Assembly (NCBI RefSeq): GCF_035633935.1
Contig: NZ_DASQDY010000434.1
Location: 1,007 to 65,006 of the forward strand
Source: Archangium sp.
GTDB taxonomy: Bacteria; Myxococcota; Myxococcia; Myxococcales; Myxococcaceae
Direction of reading: 5' to 3'
DNA length: 64,000 nucleotides
Shown: in pieces, positions 2,840 through 60,101 of the stretch
Position numbering within the stretch: position 1 is the first letter of the stretch
Layout of the letters: each line of letters opens with the position of its first letter
The notes under the pieces: model-generated
What the model saw: only the letters and a program-made list of their open reading frames with translations
Told to the model about the DNA's origin: nothing
Databases searched by the model: none
Translations under genes and position numbers: made by a program

Positions 2840-3676
2840 TCACTCCCCACGGGACTTGAGTTGCTCCAGTTCGCTCTGGAGTTCCGCCAGCCGGCGCTCT
2901 GCTTCCTGGCGTCGGCGTACCTCTTCCGCGCGCTGATGCTCCGCCTCCTCGCGTCGGCGTACCTCTTCCGCGCGCTGCCGGGCCTCCTCGTCCACTCGCC
3001 GCTGGACCCCGTCCAGCATCTCCCTCAGCCGCTCGTTCATCTCCTCCGACTCCAGCAGCAGGGCGCGGCCCGCCCAGAAGCGCAGTCTTCCTCCCTCCAA
3101 CTGCAGGTCCAGCCCCAGCACCTCCGAGGTGTACCGGCCCTGCCTCGACTCCATCCGCTCGTACTCCCTCGCCTTGGGCGAGGGCAGCCGGTACGCCTCC
3201 AGCCTCTCCCGCGCCCGGTCGTAGATGAAGTACTCGGGTATCCCCAGCCGGGCGTAGCGCCGCACGTTGTACTCGGCGTCCTTCTTGCGATCGCCGCCCA
3301 CGTGCACCTCCATCACCCAGTCCAGCCCCTTGCCCTCCTGGCTCACCACCCACTTGCCGCGCGGGTGCGTCTCGGCGTCCAGCACCACCAGCAGATCCGG
3401 CGCGAAGCGCCTCTCGCCCGGGTAGTAGATGGGCAGCTCCGCGCCCACGTACACCCGGCGCCGCTGCTGCTTGAAGTAGCCCCGGAGTGCATCCAAGGCC
3501 TGCCGCTTCCCCTCGTAGTGCAGGTCCCCCTCCGGCATCGCCATCTCATCCCACGTCACCTCCGCGGGAAGGGACTCCACCACCTGTTCCCTCTCCTCCA
3601 TGCTCATCGCCTCCCACTCCTGCTGTGTGGGGGCTCGGGGAAAGGTCTCCGCATCACTCCGTCGGTCGTGCGCCAT
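2840..3676 (-). CDS. Uma2 (DUF820) family endonuclease-like protein with C-terminal coiled coil
   Basis: MPEGDLH, FAPDLLVV, VMEVHVGGDRKKD, YARLGIPEYFIYD motifs; charged RAEE repeats at the C-terminus. Confidence 0.88.
   Translation of the reverse strand: MAHDRRSDAETFPRAPTQQEWEAMSMEEREQVVESLPAEVTWDEMAMPEGDLHYEGKRQALDALRGYFKQQRRRVYVGAELPIYYPGERRFAPDLLVVLDAETHPRGKWVVSQEGKGLDWVMEVHVGGDRKKDAEYNVRRYARLGIPEYFIYDRARERLEAYRLPSPKAREYERMESRQGRYTSEVLGLDLQLEGGRLRFWAGRALLLESEEMNERLREMLDGVQRRVDEEARQRAEEVRRREEAEHQRAEEVRRRQEAERRLAELQSELEQLKSRGE
2909..2977. repeat. Tandem repeat, 42-bp period, within the Uma2 coiled coil
   Basis: GCGTCGGCGTACCTCTTCCGCGCGCTG occurs exactly at 2909-2935 and 2951-2977. Confidence 0.9.
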
Positions 3677-55200: not shown

Positions 55201-56532
55201 GTGGCTCCCACGCTCCCGTCCGTCTCCGGTCCCTTCCACGCGTTCGTGGCGCGGCGGACGGGCATGGCCCTGAGTGACCTGCAGTGCCGGCGGCTCGACG
55301 AGAAGCTGGCGGCGCGGCCGGGCGGGCTGAGCGTGCAGTACCTGCTGCACCTGCAGTCTCCCGCGGGCACCGCGGACCTGGCCGAGCTCATCGACGCCAT
55401 CGCCGTGCAGAAGACGGAGCTCTTCCGGGACGAGCCGCAGCTGAGGGCGCTGCGCACGCACGTGCTGGAGCCGATGGTGGCGCGGATGCGCCGGCCGCTG
55501 CGGCTGTGGAGCGCCGGCTGCGCCACGGGTGAGGAGGTGGCCACGCTGCTGGTGCTGCTCGCCGAGGTGGGGGCGGATCCGGCCAGCACGGTGCTGGGCA
55601 CGGACATCTCGGAGACGGCCCTCGTGCGAGCGCGGGAGCTGTGCTTCACCGCGGAGCAGTTCCAGCGGGTGCCGTCCGGGGTGCGCGAGCGCTGGTTCAT
55701 GCCCGCCGCCGTGGGCCGCTACACGCTGGTGGGGCACCTGAGGGACCGGGCCAGCTTCCTGTGCCACAACCTGATGGACGTGCCGTACCCGACGGCGGCG
55801 GAGGGGCAGGGCTTCGACATCATCGTCTGCCGCAATGTCCTCATCTACTTCACCCCCGAGTCCTTCGACCGGGTGGTGGCGGCGCTGGCGGGGCGGCTCG
55901 CGCCCGAGGGCGTGTTGGTGCTCTCCGCCGCCGAGCCGCTGCTGCGCACGCCGCCGGGCCTGCGCACCATGCGCTTCGAACAGGCCTTCTTCTACGTCCG
56001 CGCGCCGGAGTCCGCTCCTTCCACCGACGCGGTGCCGCTCGGGGCCGTGAGGACGCCGAGCTCCAGTGGGCTGCCGGCGGTGGGGGCGCGGCAGCACCTG
56101 CTGAAGACGCCGAGCTCCAGTGGATTGCCGGCGGTGGGCACACGGCAGCCCCTGGACACGGGGAGCGCGGCTCCCGCCGAGGTTCAGCCCGGGGAGGCCG
56201 GCGCGCACCCGGAGGCGGACGCCCTCTTCGCCCGGGTGCTGGAGTGGGCCACCTCGGGAGGCGAGGCGAGTCCCCAGGCGACGGAGTCGCTGCGGCGCTG
56301 CCTCACGTTGGACCCGGACCTGGCCGCGGCGCGCTATCTGCTGGGGATGTTGCTGGAGCAGCGGGGCGCGCTGGCCGAGGCCGCCGGGGAATACCGGCGG
56401 GCCCTGCGCTCGCTGGAGGTGGGGAGGGCCCGCGCCACCCCCTTCTACCTCAACAACGCCCGGCTCCAGGTGGCCTGCGCGCGCGCCATCGAGCGGGTGG
56501 AGCGGGCCGCGGGTCCGGCTCCGGCGCGTTGA
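55201..56532 (+). CDS. cheR: Chemotaxis methyltransferase with C-terminal TPR
   Basis: TELFRD, WSAGCATGEE, CRNVLIYF; TPR ARYLLGMLL. Confidence 0.93.
   Translation: MAPTLPSVSGPFHAFVARRTGMALSDLQCRRLDEKLAARPGGLSVQYLLHLQSPAGTADLAELIDAIAVQKTELFRDEPQLRALRTHVLEPMVARMRRPLRLWSAGCATGEEVATLLVLLAEVGADPASTVLGTDISETALVRARELCFTAEQFQRVPSGVRERWFMPAAVGRYTLVGHLRDRASFLCHNLMDVPYPTAAEGQGFDIIVCRNVLIYFTPESFDRVVAALAGRLAPEGVLVLSAAEPLLRTPPGLRTMRFEQAFFYVRAPESAPSTDAVPLGAVRTPSSSGLPAVGARQHLLKTPSSSGLPAVGTRQPLDTGSAAPAEVQPGEAGAHPEADALFARVLEWATSGGEASPQATESLRRCLTLDPDLAAARYLLGMLLEQRGALAEAAGEYRRALRSLEVGRARATPFYLNNARLQVACARAIERVERAAGPAPAR
56053..56149. repeat. Imperfect tandem repeat, 54-bp period, in the CheR linker
   Basis: ACGCCGAGCTCCAGTGG starts at 56053 and 56107, encoding TPSSSGLPAVG twice. 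Confidence 0.85.
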
Positions 56533-56609
56533 AGGGCGGGCAGGCGGGCCCCGGGGCCGTGAAGAAGCCCGAGCGGGCCGGGGGGTTTGACCCTAAGATG
56601 CGCCCCCCT

Positions 56610-57473
56610 ATGCGAAGGCTCGCTCTGATCGCCCTCCCGCTCGCGCTCTCCGGCTGTTTCTACCCCGCGGACCGCGGGCGTGCGCTGGAGACCCGCCTCG
56701 AGAAGCTCGATGCCACCCAGGCGCAGCTCCAGACGGAGCTGAAGCAGACACGTGAGAAGCTCGACGCCACGCTGCCGCGAATCGACGAGAAGATCGCCGA
56801 GGTCACCAAGGCCCTGGAGGGCCTGGACAAGGCCTCGCGGCGCACGGGCGCGGACATCAGCGTCCAGCTCCAGAAGACGGTGGAGGACCTGTCCCAGCTG
56901 CGCGGCCAGGTGGAGACATATCTCTACAAGATGGGCGAGCTGGAGTCGGCGCTCGCGAAGACGAACGAGGAGACGGACAAGCGGCTGCTGGCGCTCAAGG
57001 GCGACGAGGCCCTCAAGGAGGCCGAGGCCCGGAAGAAGGCCGAGGAGTTGAAGCGGCCCACGGACAAGAAGGAGTTCCTCGCGCTGGCCCAGGAGAAGGC
57101 GAAGGGGGGCGACATGGCCCTGGCCCGGCAGCTCTACTCGGAGTTCCTCAAGAAGTGGCCGAAGGACGCGCTGGCCGCCGAGGCCCACTTCGGCCTGGGC
57201 GAGACGTACTTCGCCGAGGACAAGTGCCGCGAGGCCCTCTTCGAATACGGCAAGCTGCTGCAGGAGCACCCCAAGGCGGACTCCACGCCGGACGCGTACC
57301 TGCGCTCGTCGGAGTGCTTCAAGAAGCTGAAGATGCAGGAGGAGTCGCGGCTGGCGCTCGAGGAGCTCGTGAAGGGCTACCCGAAGTCGGAGGCGGCGAA
57401 GACGGCCAAGGCGCGGCTCGCGGAGTTGGACAAGGCGAAGAAGGCCGAGCCGAAGAAGGGTGGCAGGAAATGA
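56610..57473 (+). CDS. CpoB/YbgF-like coiled-coil plus TPR lipoprotein
   Basis: MRRLALIALPLALSGC lipobox, long coiled coil, TPR (AHFGLGETYF, AYLRSSECF). Alternative start 56598. Confidence 0.8.
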   Translation: MRRLALIALPLALSGCFYPADRGRALETRLEKLDATQAQLQTELKQTREKLDATLPRIDEKIAEVTKALEGLDKASRRTGADISVQLQKTVEDLSQLRGQVETYLYKMGELESALAKTNEETDKRLLALKGDEALKEAEARKKAEELKRPTDKKEFLALAQEKAKGGDMALARQLYSEFLKKWPKDALAAEAHFGLGETYFAEDKCREALFEYGKLLQEHPKADSTPDAYLRSSECFKKLKMQEESRLALEELVKGYPKSEAAKTAKARLAELDKAKKAEPKKGGRK

Positions 57474-58585
57474 GATTGCGTCTGGCGTTGCTGGCCGTGC
57501 TCGCGCTGCTGCTGACGCCCCTGGTGGCGGGTGCGGCGCCCAGGCAGGTGGTGCTCCTCTTCACCGGAGACAACGGGGGCGAGATCGCCCCTTGTGGTTG
57601 ACGCCACAACCCGTCTGGCGGTCTGGCCAGACGAAAGACGGCCTTCTCGCGGGAGCGCGCGAGTGGAGGGCCGGTGCTGGTGCTGGACGCGGGCAATGCG
57701 CTCTTCAAGTCTCCTACGCCGGGGGGTGATCCGAAGGAGAAGGAGCGTGCCGGGTTGCTGCTCGAGCAGATGGACGCGTTGGGCACCACGGCCATGGCCG
57801 TGGGCGCGCGCGACCTGACGCTCGGGACGGACTGCCTCGCACGGGCCACGAAGGGACGGACGATGAAGCTCCTGTCCGCCAATCTCGTGGACGCGGCGGG
57901 CAAGCCGCTCTTCCCAGCATCCACCGTGGCGACGGGGGGAGGCGTGAAGTTCGGCCTGGTGGGCCTCTCCCCCGAGGGCCCGGTCACCCCGCAGAAGGGC
58001 GTGGTGGGCAGCCCCCCGGTACCGGCGGCCCTCGCCGAGTCCCGCCGCCTGCGCGAAAAGGAGAAGGTGGACGTGGTGGTGGTGCTCGCCGCGGTGCCCT
58101 ATCAGGACGCCGTCAAGCTCTCCCAGGAAGTGGGCAATGCCGTGGACTTCATCCTGCACTCGCACGAGGGCCGGGGTCAGGGCGTGGCGCAGCGCAACGA
58201 CTTCGCCTCGCTCGTCCCCACGGGAGAGCGCGGGAGGCAGGTCGGCCGTCTGGAGCTCTCCGTGGAGGGCAAGGGGCCCTTCGTGGATCTCTCGGAGGAG
58301 GAGCGGGCCCGACAGCAGCTGAAAATCCTCGATACCCACCTCCAGCAGGCGAGGCAGAGCCTGGCGGCCGCCAAGGATGAGAAGGTCCGGAAGACGTGGG
58401 AGGAGACCATCGCCAGCTTCGAGGCCCGCCGGAAGGCGCTGGAACTGCAGGTGGAGCCGGGCAAGCAGGGGCTCGGGCGTACCCACCGCCTCTCGTACAT
58501 CCAACTGGGGAGCAACGTCGCGGATGACTCCGCGGTGAAGCAACTCGTGGAGCGAATCGAACCCCCGGGTTCCGCATCCCATTAG
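57470..58585 (+). CDS. Probable secreted selenoprotein, UshA/5'-nucleotidase-like fold (Sec at codon 44)
   Basis: ATG 57470, signal peptide, [17 protein letters not shown](57599-57601)[11 protein letters not shown] continuing in frame into the ORF at 57674-58585; SECIS-like hairpin downstream. Confidence 0.82.
57612..57633 (+). promoter_or_regulatory. Putative bacterial SECIS element
   Basis: CGTCTGGC-GGTCTG-GCCAGACG: perfect 8-bp stem; 6-nt loop starting with GG, 18 nt after the UGA. Confidence 0.7.
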
Positions 58586-58710
58586 TCCTGGACGGGGCCC
58601 GGTCGCGGGCCTTGTGCCAGGGCCGGTCCGCCGTTATAAGCGCCGGCCTACCTCTAGAACGCCAGACCTCCCACCCTGGAGTGGGGGCAAGGCGCAGGAG
58701 TCGTCGAATC

Positions 58711-59013
58711 ATGAAGGCTGATCTGCATCCGGTCTACCCGCCCGCTCGCATCACCTGCGCGTGCGGCAACGTGGTCGAGACCAAGTCCACGCGTGGCTCG
58801 TTCACGGTGGAAATCTGCTCGAACTGCCACCCCTTCTTCACGGGCAAGTACAAGCTCATCGACACCGCGGGTCGCGTGGAGAAGTTCCGCAGGAAGTACG
58901 GGACGGGCAAGCCCGCCGAGGGTGCCGCGGCCGAGGGGGCCACTCCCGCCGCTGCTCCCGCCGAGGGCGCCGCTCCCGCCGCGAAGAAGACCGCCAAGAA
59001 GGCCAAGGCCTAG
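58711..59013 (+). CDS. rpmE: 50S ribosomal protein L31 (Zn-binding type) with Ala-rich tail
   Basis: [31 protein letters not shown]. Confidence 0.96.
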
Positions 59014-59210: not shown

Positions 59211-60101
59211 ATGTCCGCGGAAGCCGCAGCTCCTGTCCTGAAGCTTGTTCAGCAGCCCTCGCTGCGCGAGAGCCTGTTCGCCAAGAGCGATGCGTACCGG
59301 CTCTACCAGGGCGACAGCCTGGCGCTGCTCGAGCAGTTCGAGCCGGGAACCTTCGACATGGTGTTCGCCGACCCGCCCTACTTCCTGTCCAACGGGGGCT
59401 TCACCTGCAAGAGCGGCAAGCGCGCCGCGGTGAACAAGGGCGGCTGGGACGTGTCGCGCGGGGTGGAGGAGGACCACGCGTTCACCACGGCCTGGCTCAA
59501 GGCCTGCCAGCGGGTGCTCAAGCCCACGGGGACCATCTGGGTGAGCGGCACGCAGCACGTCATCTTCTCGGTCGGCTTCGCGATGCAGAAGCTGGGCTAC
59601 AAGCTGCTGAACACCGTCACCTGGTACAAGCCCAACGCCAGCCCCAACCTGGCGTGCCGGTACTTCACCCACTCCTCCGAGCTGCTCATCTGGGCCTCGC
59701 CGAAGCCGGCCGCGAAGCTGCAGCACACGTTCAACTACGCGAAGATGAAGGCGGAGAACGGCGGCAAGCAGATGCGCGACGTGTGGGCGCTGCCGCGCAC
59801 GGGCGACGAGGAGCTGGCCGCCGACGAGTCCGGCCGCGTGTGGACGATGACGGCGCCGCGCCGTGAGGAGAAGGCGCACGGCAGCCACCCCACGCAGAAG
59901 CCGGTGTCGCTGCTGGAGCGCGTCATCGAGGCGAGCACCCCCGAGGACGCGCTGGTGTTGGACCCGTTCAACGGCAGTGGCACCACGGGCGTGGCGGCGC
60001 TGAAGCTGGGCCGGCGCTACGTGGGCATCGACCTGGACGAGCAGTACCTGAAGCTGTCGCAGAAGCGCCTGGCCGAGGCCGGGCGCACGGCGGGCCGGTA
60101 G
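59211..60101 (+). CDS. Orphan N4/N6 DNA methyltransferase (beta class)
   Basis: FADPPY before HPTQKP and DPFNGSGTTG; host-like codon usage; no cognate nuclease adjacent. Confidence 0.92.
   Translation: MSAEAAAPVLKLVQQPSLRESLFAKSDAYRLYQGDSLALLEQFEPGTFDMVFADPPYFLSNGGFTCKSGKRAAVNKGGWDVSRGVEEDHAFTTAWLKACQRVLKPTGTIWVSGTQHVIFSVGFAMQKLGYKLLNTVTWYKPNASPNLACRYFTHSSELLIWASPKPAAKLQHTFNYAKMKAENGGKQMRDVWALPRTGDEELAADESGRVWTMTAPRREEKAHGSHPTQKPVSLLERVIEASTPEDALVLDPFNGSGTTGVAALKLGRRYVGIDLDEQYLKLSQKRLAEAGRTAGR

What the first reader, a model, noticed from the sequence alone, without database searches (positions are those of the whole stretch)
57470..58585. Hidden secreted selenoprotein: Cys-Gly-UGA with a SECIS-like hairpin
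Seen: a signal peptide and the first metallophosphoesterase strand (LFTGDNGG), then TGT GGT TGA, with the frame continuing ([11 protein letters not shown]...LDAGNALF) to 58585. A perfect 8-bp stem with a G-initiated loop sits 18 nt after the UGA, matching the bacterial SECIS model. UshA-like CxU selenoproteins are annotated in Deltaproteobacteria (from memory). Canonical metal ligands are eroded (DAGN for DAGD, GARD for GNHE), so a periplasmic redox role rather than nucleotidase activity is plausible. The ORF track and standard callers split this gene.
Basis: partly seen in the sequence, partly recalled or inferred. Interest (0 to 1): 0.85.

Follow-up and report, generated by a model that had tools for sequence, protein, structure and literature searches.

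The report
UshA-like selenoprotein gene, split by callers
This is a genuine gene for a secreted selenocysteine-containing protein of the already described UshA-like Cys-x-Sec family; gene callers cut it in two at its UGA codon, so it is a real annotation gap in myxobacteria but not a new kind of protein.

Summary
Window 57470-58585 (+) is one 371-codon frame broken only by TGA at codon 44 (57599-57601), within Pro-Cys-Gly-UGA. A perfect 8-bp hairpin follows; its GGUCUG loop starts 18 nt after the UGA.

The UGA is almost certainly decoded as selenocysteine:
- The genome has tRNA-Sec, selA, selB and selD.
- The same in-frame TGA occurs in 48 of 73 readable related loci from myxobacterial genomes. 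The other 25 have TGC (Cys).
- Cys is invariant at this position across the wider family.
- The hairpin is conserved at synonymous sites in the Sec forms only, and it covaries across phyla.

The protein has a 5'-nucleotidase-like metallophosphoesterase fold, but most metal ligands are gone. Its best match is NCBIfam NF041198, "UshA-like (seleno)protein, PCGU", at 171 bits against a cut-off of 275. True NF041198 members carry an extra C-terminal tetrahaem cytochrome c domain that this protein lacks.

The UshA-like CxU selenoprotein family has been in the literature since 2008 or earlier. This is therefore a new, short, haem-less member, which public records for Archangium list as a 303-aa "5'-nucleotidase". 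Its function is unknown; a periplasmic Cys/Sec redox role is the best inference.

The parts
56598..57473 (+). Upstream gene for a CpoB/YbgF-like TPR lipoprotein (291 aa; lipobox LSGC). Its TGA stop (57471-57473) overlaps the selenoprotein ATG in an ATGA overlap.
   Evidence: Pfam TPR_6, TolA_bind_tri and YfiO hits. Found directly upstream in 47 of the 48 Sec loci; the 48th (L052) has too little upstream sequence to tell.
57470..58585 (+). Complete selenoprotein gene: 371 codons with UGA (Sec) at codon 44. It is a short, haem-less relative of the UshA-like PCGU family.
57470..57535 (+). Probable Sec-type signal peptide (residues 1-22, cleavage after A-G-A). Inferred, not tested.
   Evidence: Sequence features. 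The AF2 model gives an N-terminal helix at residues 2-19 followed by a low-confidence linker.
57593..57601 (+). Cys42-Gly43-Sec44 codons (TGT GGT TGA), the invariant CGC/CGU motif of the family.
   Evidence: C42, G43 and C44 are invariant in alignments A1 and A3. TGA is present in 48 related loci.
57612..57633 (+). SECIS hairpin. The 8-bp stem is 57612-57619 paired with 57626-57633; the apical loop GGUCUG is 57620-57625. It lies over codons 48-55 (P-S-G-G-L-A-R-R).
   Evidence: Fold. Near-invariant nucleotides including rare codons, plus compensatory changes. Synonymous-site constraint in Sec forms only. Covariation across phyla.
57674..58585 (+). The 303-aa ORF that standard callers report as a truncated '5'-nucleotidase'. 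It is only the 3' part of the real gene.
   Evidence: P0003 and the 303-aa Archangium entries.

Best explanation
Window 57470-58585 is one gene. Its UGA at codon 44 is recoded to selenocysteine by SelB and tRNA-Sec, directed by a SECIS hairpin whose GGUCUG loop starts 18 nt downstream. The product is a Sec-exported (periplasmic) 371-aa protein built on the N-terminal metallophosphoesterase fold of 5'-nucleotidase/UshA. Most of the dinuclear-metal ligands and the catalytic His have been replaced. The invariant feature is now a Cys42-Gly-Sec44 pair in the loop that follows the first beta-strand.

The protein is a short, haem-less relative of the known UshA-like 'PCGU' (CxU) selenoprotein family. 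The most likely mode of action is inferred, not shown: a Cys/Sec (selenylsulfide) redox centre acting in the periplasm. In the long family members this centre would be wired to a fused tetrahaem cytochrome c. Here it would depend on a separate partner. In Myxococcota the gene is translationally coupled to a CpoB/YbgF-like TPR lipoprotein gene.
For: Shown:
1. The frame is intact on both sides of a single TGA.
2. The genome has tRNA-Sec at 73 bits with anticodon tca, selA at 481 bits, selB at 323 bits and selD at 378 bits, itself with an in-frame TGA.
3. Of 74 related genomic loci, 48 have TGA at this codon and 25 have TGC. Peptide conservation is strong on both sides ([16 protein letters not shown] / [12 protein letters not shown]), including the 24 codons between the TGA and the annotated GTG start.
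4. Cys is invariant here in full-length homologues.
5. The hairpin has 8 of 8 pairs in 38 of 48 Sec loci. Rare codons (TCT, GGT, AGA, CGA) are retained. L083 keeps 8 bp through two compensatory pairs. Cys paralogues form only 3-6 pairs in register.
6. Codon entropy at conserved residues is 0.30 in codons 41-56 against 0.87 elsewhere in Sec forms. In Cys forms it is 0.99 against 0.65.
7. Across 77 PCGU genes from many phyla, the same-register helix has a covariation score of 0.200 against 0.142 in shuffles (0 of 500 reach it), and it beats all slid registers.
8. The AF2 model (pLDDT 81.8, pTM 0.80) matches the E. coli UshA N-domain at E = 1.5e-16.
9. Ligand mapping to solved 5'-nucleotidases: N76 replaces Asp, A113 replaces Asn, R114 replaces the catalytic His, A208 replaces His.
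10. NCBIfam NF041198 'UshA_like_PCGU' is the best family hit, E = 4.6e-50. True members carry four CxxCH motifs at the C-terminus.
Against: - No direct evidence of selenium incorporation or of expression.
- No Rfam family matches the hairpin.
- The single-sequence fold is only mildly better than shuffles.
- The score against NF041198 (171 bits) is below its 275-bit cut-off, and the cytochrome domain is absent, so the function may differ from that of the curated family.
- The redox mechanism is inference. Cys/Sec could instead ligate a metal at the remnant site, where D34 and H232 are retained.
- The loop at residues 45-48 next to the Sec has pLDDT below 50, so the geometry of the site is unknown.
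Confidence: 0.93

Rival explanations
1. Nonsense mutation or pseudogene: the TGA is a recent inactivating change in a Cys-containing UshA-like gene.
For: Standard callers treat it as a stop. Cys paralogues with TGC exist in the same genome.
Against: The TGA is present at the same codon in 48 loci spanning Archangium, Cystobacter, Hyalangium, Vitiosangium, Corallococcus, Myxococcus, Pyxidicoccus and Citreicoccus. These have full-length frames of 360-383 codons and no other stops. The position is syntenic.
Confidence: 0.01
2. Two products: translation ends at the UGA, giving a 43-aa secreted peptide. A separate cytoplasmic 303-aa protein then starts at GTG 57674, as annotated in public records.
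For: An ORF with a GTG start exists. This is how public records for Archangium genomes list the gene.
Against: Codons 45-68 lie upstream of that GTG. They are strongly conserved as protein (GGLARRK is invariant) and align to the 5'-nucleotidase core. The 303-aa product would lack the first beta-strand, the invariant CGC/U motif and the signal peptide. Cys homologues are single 367-376-aa proteins.
Confidence: 0.03
3. The UGA is read through, but by a near-cognate or suppressor tRNA (Trp or Cys) rather than tRNA-Sec. The hairpin would only stimulate read-through.
For: Nothing here measures which residue is inserted.
Against: The selABCD set is complete and the genome's own selD uses UGA. The hairpin loop carries GGUC, as does the selD hairpin of the same genome and, from memory, the E. 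coli fdhF SECIS. Cys/Sec pairing in homologues is the classic selenoprotein signature used in PMC2398784.
Confidence: 0.03

Closest known systems
NCBIfam NF041198 'UshA_like_PCGU', UshA-like (seleno)protein. This is the COG0737 UshA-like CxU selenoprotein family of Zhang & Gladyshev (PMC2398784; listed in PMC9312934 and PMC13188914).
   Same: Same metallophosphoesterase-like N-domain. Same D..GE...P-C-G-U/C...GGLAR(R/K) motif, with Sec or Cys at the same column. Same helical hairpin insert. SECIS in the same register over the GGL codons in many members.
   Different: It scores 171 bits against the 275-bit cut-off. It is 371 aa rather than about 515-530 aa. It ends right after 'EPPGS' and lacks the C-terminal tetrahaem (4 x CxxCH, Cytochrome_C554-like) domain that the members above the cut-off carry. 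In Myxococcota it is coupled to a CpoB-like gene.
E. coli UshA and other 5'-nucleotidases (PDB 1USH, 1HP1, 2Z1A, CD73); calcineurin-like metallophosphoesterases
   Same: Fold of the N-terminal domain (Foldseek E = 1e-16, TM about 0.53-0.54 on the query). Secreted location. The first-motif Asp (D34) and one His (H232) are retained.
   Different: Four of the mapped metal ligands and the catalytic His are replaced: G36, N76, A113, R114 and A208. There is no Pfam Metallophos hit and no C-terminal nucleotide-binding domain. It gains the CGU motif.
SoxB thiosulfohydrolase (TIGR04486; PDB 2WDC)
   Same: Distant sequence and fold similarity within the same superfamily. Periplasmic, and acts in redox/sulfur chemistry.
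   Different: SoxB keeps a dimanganese site and is about 560 aa. The score here is 36 bits against a cut-off of 550.
NCBIfam NF049981, UshA-like (seleno)protein family 2 (CxxU)
   Same: Also a UshA-like selenoprotein.
   Different: It scores 47.7 bits against a cut-off of 140. That family has a CxxU motif rather than CxU.
Bacterial SECIS as in E. coli fdhF (from memory: apical hairpin with a GGUC loop, G and U contacting SelB; the bSECISearch rule has the loop 16-37 nt after the UGA with a G among the first two loop bases)
   Same: Hairpin immediately 3' of the UGA. The loop starts 18 nt downstream, begins GG and contains GGUC.
   Different: No bulged U in the stem. No curated Rfam model matches it. 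Binding to SelB was not tested.

Membership tests
Bacterial selenoprotein gene (SelB/SECIS-decoded UGA) | In-frame UGA with a conserved coding frame on both sides in orthologues | tested here: met
   48 loci have TGA at the same codon, full-length frames and no other stops.
Bacterial selenoprotein gene (SelB/SECIS-decoded UGA) | Cys-containing homologues aligned at the UGA | tested here: met
   TGC in 25 paralogous or orthologous loci. Cys is invariant in alignments A1 and A3.
Bacterial selenoprotein gene (SelB/SECIS-decoded UGA) | Stem-loop just 3' of the UGA, conserved as RNA | tested here: met
   8-bp hairpin with a GGUCUG loop. Synonymous-site constraint in Sec forms only. Compensatory changes and covariation.
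Bacterial selenoprotein gene (SelB/SECIS-decoded UGA) | selA, selB, selC and selD present in the genome | tested here: met
   all are above the curated cut-offs.
Bacterial selenoprotein gene (SelB/SECIS-decoded UGA) | Selenium actually incorporated at the residue | not testable with these tools
   Needs 75Se labelling or mass spectrometry.
NCBIfam NF041198 UshA_like_PCGU (equivalog) | Whole-protein score at or above the curated cut-off of 275 bits | tested here: not met
   170.7 bits, matching model positions 8-374 of 519.
NCBIfam NF041198 UshA_like_PCGU (equivalog) | P-C-G-U/C motif after the first strand of the UshA-like domain | tested here: met
   APCGU at residues 40-44, aligned with the CGC of members above the cut-off.
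NCBIfam NF041198 UshA_like_PCGU (equivalog) | C-terminal tetrahaem cytochrome c module, seen in all four members above the cut-off that were examined | tested here: not met
   No CxxCH motif in the window protein; 4 in each of P0255, P0224, P0258 and P0236.
5'-nucleotidase/UshA (calcineurin-like metallophosphoesterase) | Metallophosphoesterase fold of the N-domain | tested here: met
   Foldseek hits to 1USH, 1HP1 and 2Z1A, E about 1e-16.
5'-nucleotidase/UshA (calcineurin-like metallophosphoesterase) | Dinuclear metal ligands and the catalytic His (DxH, GD, GNH[ED], H, GHxH/Q) | tested here: not met
   D-N-G, G-N, G-A-R-D and A208 stand at the ligand positions. Only D34 and H232 are kept.
5'-nucleotidase/UshA (calcineurin-like metallophosphoesterase) | C-terminal substrate-binding domain (5_nucleotid_C) and Pfam Metallophos hits | tested here: not met
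   No Pfam family matches at E <= 0.1. After a helical hairpin the protein has only one further strand and a short helix.
NCBIfam NF049981 UshA-like (seleno)protein family 2 | Score at or above 140 bits, and a CxxU motif | tested here: not met
   47.7 bits. The motif here is CxU.

The most novel reading that the evidence does not exclude
The haem-less short form is a distinct, unannotated subfamily found in aerobic Myxococcota. There it is always translationally coupled to a CpoB/YbgF-like TPR lipoprotein gene, and in some relatives it follows pal. It would be an envelope (Tol-Pal-associated) selenol/thiol redox enzyme in which a metallophosphoesterase scaffold has traded its dimetal site for a Cys-x-Sec centre. 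This would give the first functional handle on a widespread selenoprotein family of unknown function.
Probability: 0.25. Interest if true: 0.55.

Novelty: new member of a known kind. Interest (0 to 1): 0.3.

Why it matters
- Annotation gap: in every Archangium, Vitiosangium and Melittangium entry that carries a source name, this gene is listed as a truncated 303-aa '5'-nucleotidase'. That product lacks its signal peptide, first strand and active-site motif. The curated NCBIfam model that would rescue it scores below its cut-off for this short form.
- Selenoproteome: correcting the call adds a conserved, syntenic selenoprotein to aerobic, predatory myxobacteria, a group barely mentioned in the selenoprotein literature searched.
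- Family function: the UshA-like CxU family is widespread. Hits came from MAGs labelled Fibrobacteraceae, Neomarinimicrobiota, Calditrichaceae, Eisenbacteria, Gemmatimonadetes, Desulfobulbia and Acidobacteriota, among others. It has no known function.
- Leads for experiment: the short versus tetrahaem-fused forms, and the loss of the metal ligands, point to redox chemistry rather than phosphoester hydrolysis. Culturable Myxococcus and Corallococcus species carry the gene, so it could be studied in cultivated strains.

Tried and rejected
- Rfam scan of 57500-57750 at E <= 10: only two chance-level hits on the opposite strand and no SECIS model.
- Pfam on the read-through protein: nothing meaningful.
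- Family-wide link to CpoB/YbgF: rejected. A CpoB-like ORF lies upstream on the same strand in only 8 of 63 assessable PCGU loci from other lineages, and 5 of the 8 are myxobacterial. The link does hold for all assessable myxobacterial Sec loci and for four of the seven distant Cys members whose contexts were looked up: P0224, P0128, P0147 and perhaps P0178.
- Link to selenium metabolism (selD - TusA/DsrE directly upstream): seen at one locus only, L103, so not taken as general.
- The search for related loci with the broad alignment A3 failed because no stretch was conserved enough. A degenerate DNA pattern search replaced it.
- Promoter and terminator scan of 56400-58760 found nothing.
- Earlier-findings look-ups returned only unrelated neighbouring notes, or nothing.

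Full report
**Observation**

- An ATG at 57470 opens a frame encoding [43 protein letters not shown].
- TGA follows at 57599-57601 (codon 44).
- The same frame continues without another stop ([35 protein letters not shown]...) to TAG at 58583-58585, giving 371 residues.

Under table 11 the gene splits into an ORF ending at 57601 and a 303-aa ORF starting at GTG 57674. RNA folding places a perfect 8-bp stem at 57612-57619 paired with 57626-57633, closing the loop GGUCUG at 57620-57625. The loop starts 18 nt after the UGA. On its own this fold is only mildly unusual (z = -2.15), so the argument rests on comparison with other genomes.

**Sec machinery**

The window's genome is 10.8 Mb in 748 contigs. 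Its nearest relatives by this gene are Archangium species. All of the following score above the curated cut-offs:
- tRNA-Sec, 73 bits, anticodon tca
- selA, 481 bits
- selB, 323 bits
- selD, 378 bits

selD itself contains an in-frame TGA in the motif HCAGU-AAKI. A downstream hairpin there has GGUC at its apex.

**Comparative evidence for Sec**

*Protein search.* Two kinds of homologue appeared.
- Proteins of about 303 aa covering 82% of the query. These are Archangium, Vitiosangium and Melittangium entries, named '5'-nucleotidase' in public records.
- Full-length proteins of 367-376 aa at 53-66% identity.

All 16 full-length homologues aligned have Cys at column 44, in a [P/H/D]-C-G-C motif.

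*DNA of 74 related genomic loci.*
- 48 carry TGA at exactly this codon, within ...[13 protein letters not shown][RS][11 protein letters not shown]...
- 25 carry TGC.
- One could not be read.

Read through, the complete Sec-form genes are mostly 360-383 codons with no other stop.

*Synteny.* The Sec loci share the order cheR, CpoB-like gene, this gene, rpmE, DNA methyltransferase; not every gene is detected in every locus. The Cys paralogues lie elsewhere, with one exception: L073 has Cys in the syntenic place.

*Tree.* The window's gene sits inside an Archangium Sec clade (support 100/98). The Cys clades nest among Sec lineages, which requires about three Sec/Cys switches.

**The hairpin is selected as RNA**

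- In 38 of the 48 Sec loci the sequence CGTCTGGC-GGTCTG-GCCAGACG is identical. This holds even where the proteins are only about 55-60% identical. It keeps codons that are rare in these GC-rich genomes (TCT, GGT, AGA, CGA).
- L083 keeps 8 pairs through two compensatory changes (CGGCGGGC/GCTCGCCG).
- Four divergent loci refold into 7 bp plus a bulge.
- Cys paralogues encode the same peptide (GGLARR) with ordinary codons, and only 3-6 of 8 positions can pair.
- At residues conserved in at least 90% of sequences, codon entropy in codons 41-56 is 0.30 against 0.87 elsewhere in Sec forms. In Cys forms it is 0.99 against 0.65.
- A degenerate DNA pattern for P-C-G-UGA-x5-G-G-L-[AS]-[KR] was searched across the prokaryote species-genome collection.
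- On these 77 loci the same-register helix shows covariation. There are 47 double-sided changes against 28.6 in shuffles, and the score is 0.200 against 0.142, with 0 of 500 shuffles reaching either value. It is also the best of seven registers.
- GGTCT[GT] is the commonest loop, in 45 of 77.
- Some long-form members appear to use a second hairpin further downstream (CUGGCC-CGGAG-GGCCAG). This was not followed up.

**What the protein is**

Pfam finds nothing. NCBIfam's best hit is NF041198 'UshA_like_PCGU, UshA-like (seleno)protein'. The E-value is 4.6e-50 at 170.7 bits, matching model positions 8-374 of 519, which is below the 275-bit cut-off.

An AF2 model (pLDDT 81.8, pTM 0.80) matches the N-terminal metallophosphoesterase domain of E. 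coli UshA and other 5'-nucleotidases (E about 1e-16), and also SoxB.

Profile alignment to solved 5'-nucleotidases maps the ligand positions:

| Residue here | Replaces in 5'-nucleotidases |
|---|---|
| N76 | Asp of the GD motif |
| A113 | Asn of the GNHE motif |
| R114 | His of the GNHE motif |
| A208 | a ligand His |
| G36 | the His of DxH (by position in the motif) |

The assignment of these residues as the bridging Asp, the ligand Asn and the catalytic His follows E. coli UshA numbering recalled from memory. Only D34 and H232 remain. Phosphoesterase chemistry is therefore unlikely.

Across a 23-45%-identity family alignment the invariant residues include C42, G43, C44, G50, G51 and G75. 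The CGC/CGU motif is therefore the conserved core.

**Relation to the curated family**

A profile search of 1.84 billion representatives found 151 clusters at E <= 1e-30. Many of them start at profile positions 59-72, which probably marks truncated calls of Sec forms.

Members that pass the NF041198 cut-off are 511-530 aa (P0255 at 569 bits; P0224, P0258 and P0236 at about 300 bits). They have the same N-domain and the same helical hairpin, plus a C-terminal module with four CxxCH motifs (Cytochrome_C554-like). The window protein ends just after 'EPPGS', where that module would begin.

The fused tetrahaem domain is the strongest indication that the family does electron-transfer chemistry. The window's protein would need a separate partner for that.

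**Genomic context**

The upstream gene (56598-57473) encodes a CpoB/YbgF-like lipoprotein with TolA_bind_tri and TPR_6 hits. Its stop overlaps the ATG at 57470.

This pairing holds in all assessable myxobacterial Sec loci. It recurs in some distant Cys members, in two of them directly after an OmpA/Pal-like gene. It is not family-wide: only 8 of 63 assessable loci from other lineages show it. One strong NF041198 member lies directly after selD and a TusA/DsrE gene. That is a single case.

**Literature**

'COG0737, UshA-like, CxU' is listed among the previously described selenoprotein families in the 2008 GOS study, with 76 Sec and 92 Cys sequences (PMC2398784). It also appears in the 2022 and 2026 reviews, the latter citing NF041198 and NF049981 (PMC9312934, PMC13188914). 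None of these assigns a function to the family. The 2022 and 2026 reviews do not mention myxobacteria, and a search for 'selenoprotein' plus 'Myxococcus' found nothing relevant.

**Verdict**

- It is a new, short, haem-less member of an already known family and is consistently under-annotated in myxobacteria. It is not a new kind of system.
- The mechanism is inferred, not shown: a periplasmic Cys/Sec redox centre on a metallophosphoesterase scaffold that has lost most of its metal ligands.
- Selenium incorporation, expression and function remain untested.

Noticed in passing
own genome G000:C680 (L092, TGA at locus position 1531): The genome's selD is itself a selenoprotein gene, with an in-frame TGA in ...AHCAG-U-AAKI... 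About 25 nt downstream is a hairpin, UGGCGCAG-GUC-CUGCGCCA, with GGUC at its apex. This is the same loop motif as in the finding.
   Followed up: partly
own genome G000:C433:12090-13130 (L095) and G000:C41:14809-15888 (L098): Two Cys-containing paralogues of the finding's gene lie in the same genome, in unrelated contexts. One follows an SH3_3 protein; the other lies between an M43-like peptidase gene and an FAD oxidoreductase gene. Further, more distant UshA-like genes are also present.
   Followed up: partly
window 57592-57609: A small 7-bp hairpin (UUGUGGU / GCCACAA) holds the UGA in its 4-nt loop. In the Sec forms the codons upstream of the UGA (33-43, including TGT GGT) also show very low synonymous variation, unlike the Cys forms. 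The RNA constraint may therefore extend 5' of the UGA.
   Followed up: partly
L103 4241-7554 (metagenome contig carrying P0255, the best NF041198 member): The gene order is selD-like (AIRS/AIRS_C), then a TusA/DsrE fusion, then the UshA-like PCGC tetrahaem protein. A C_GCAxxG_C_C family gene is nearby. This is a possible link to selenium or sulfur trafficking, seen at one locus only.
   Followed up: no
L112, L118, L130, L131, L135, L156 (Fibrobacteraceae, Krumholzibacteriia and unclassified MAGs), about 24-45 nt after the UGA: These long-form PCGU genes seem to use a different SECIS hairpin. It is CUGGCC-CGGAG-GGCCAG over the L-A-R-R-A-S codons, instead of the GGUCUG-loop hairpin.
   Followed up: no
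L073 (Myxococcaceae MAG), codon at locus position 3067: This locus has TGC (Cys) in the syntenic CpoB-like / rpmE position, and it is sister to a Sec form (L074). This looks like an in-place Sec/Cys switch rather than a paralogue.
   Followed up: partly
window 55201-56532 and 59211-60101: The flanking genes are a CheR-type methyltransferase with a C-terminal TPR region (upstream) and an N6/N4 DNA methyltransferase (downstream of rpmE). Both are syntenic with the selenoprotein gene across most myxobacterial loci.
   Followed up: partly
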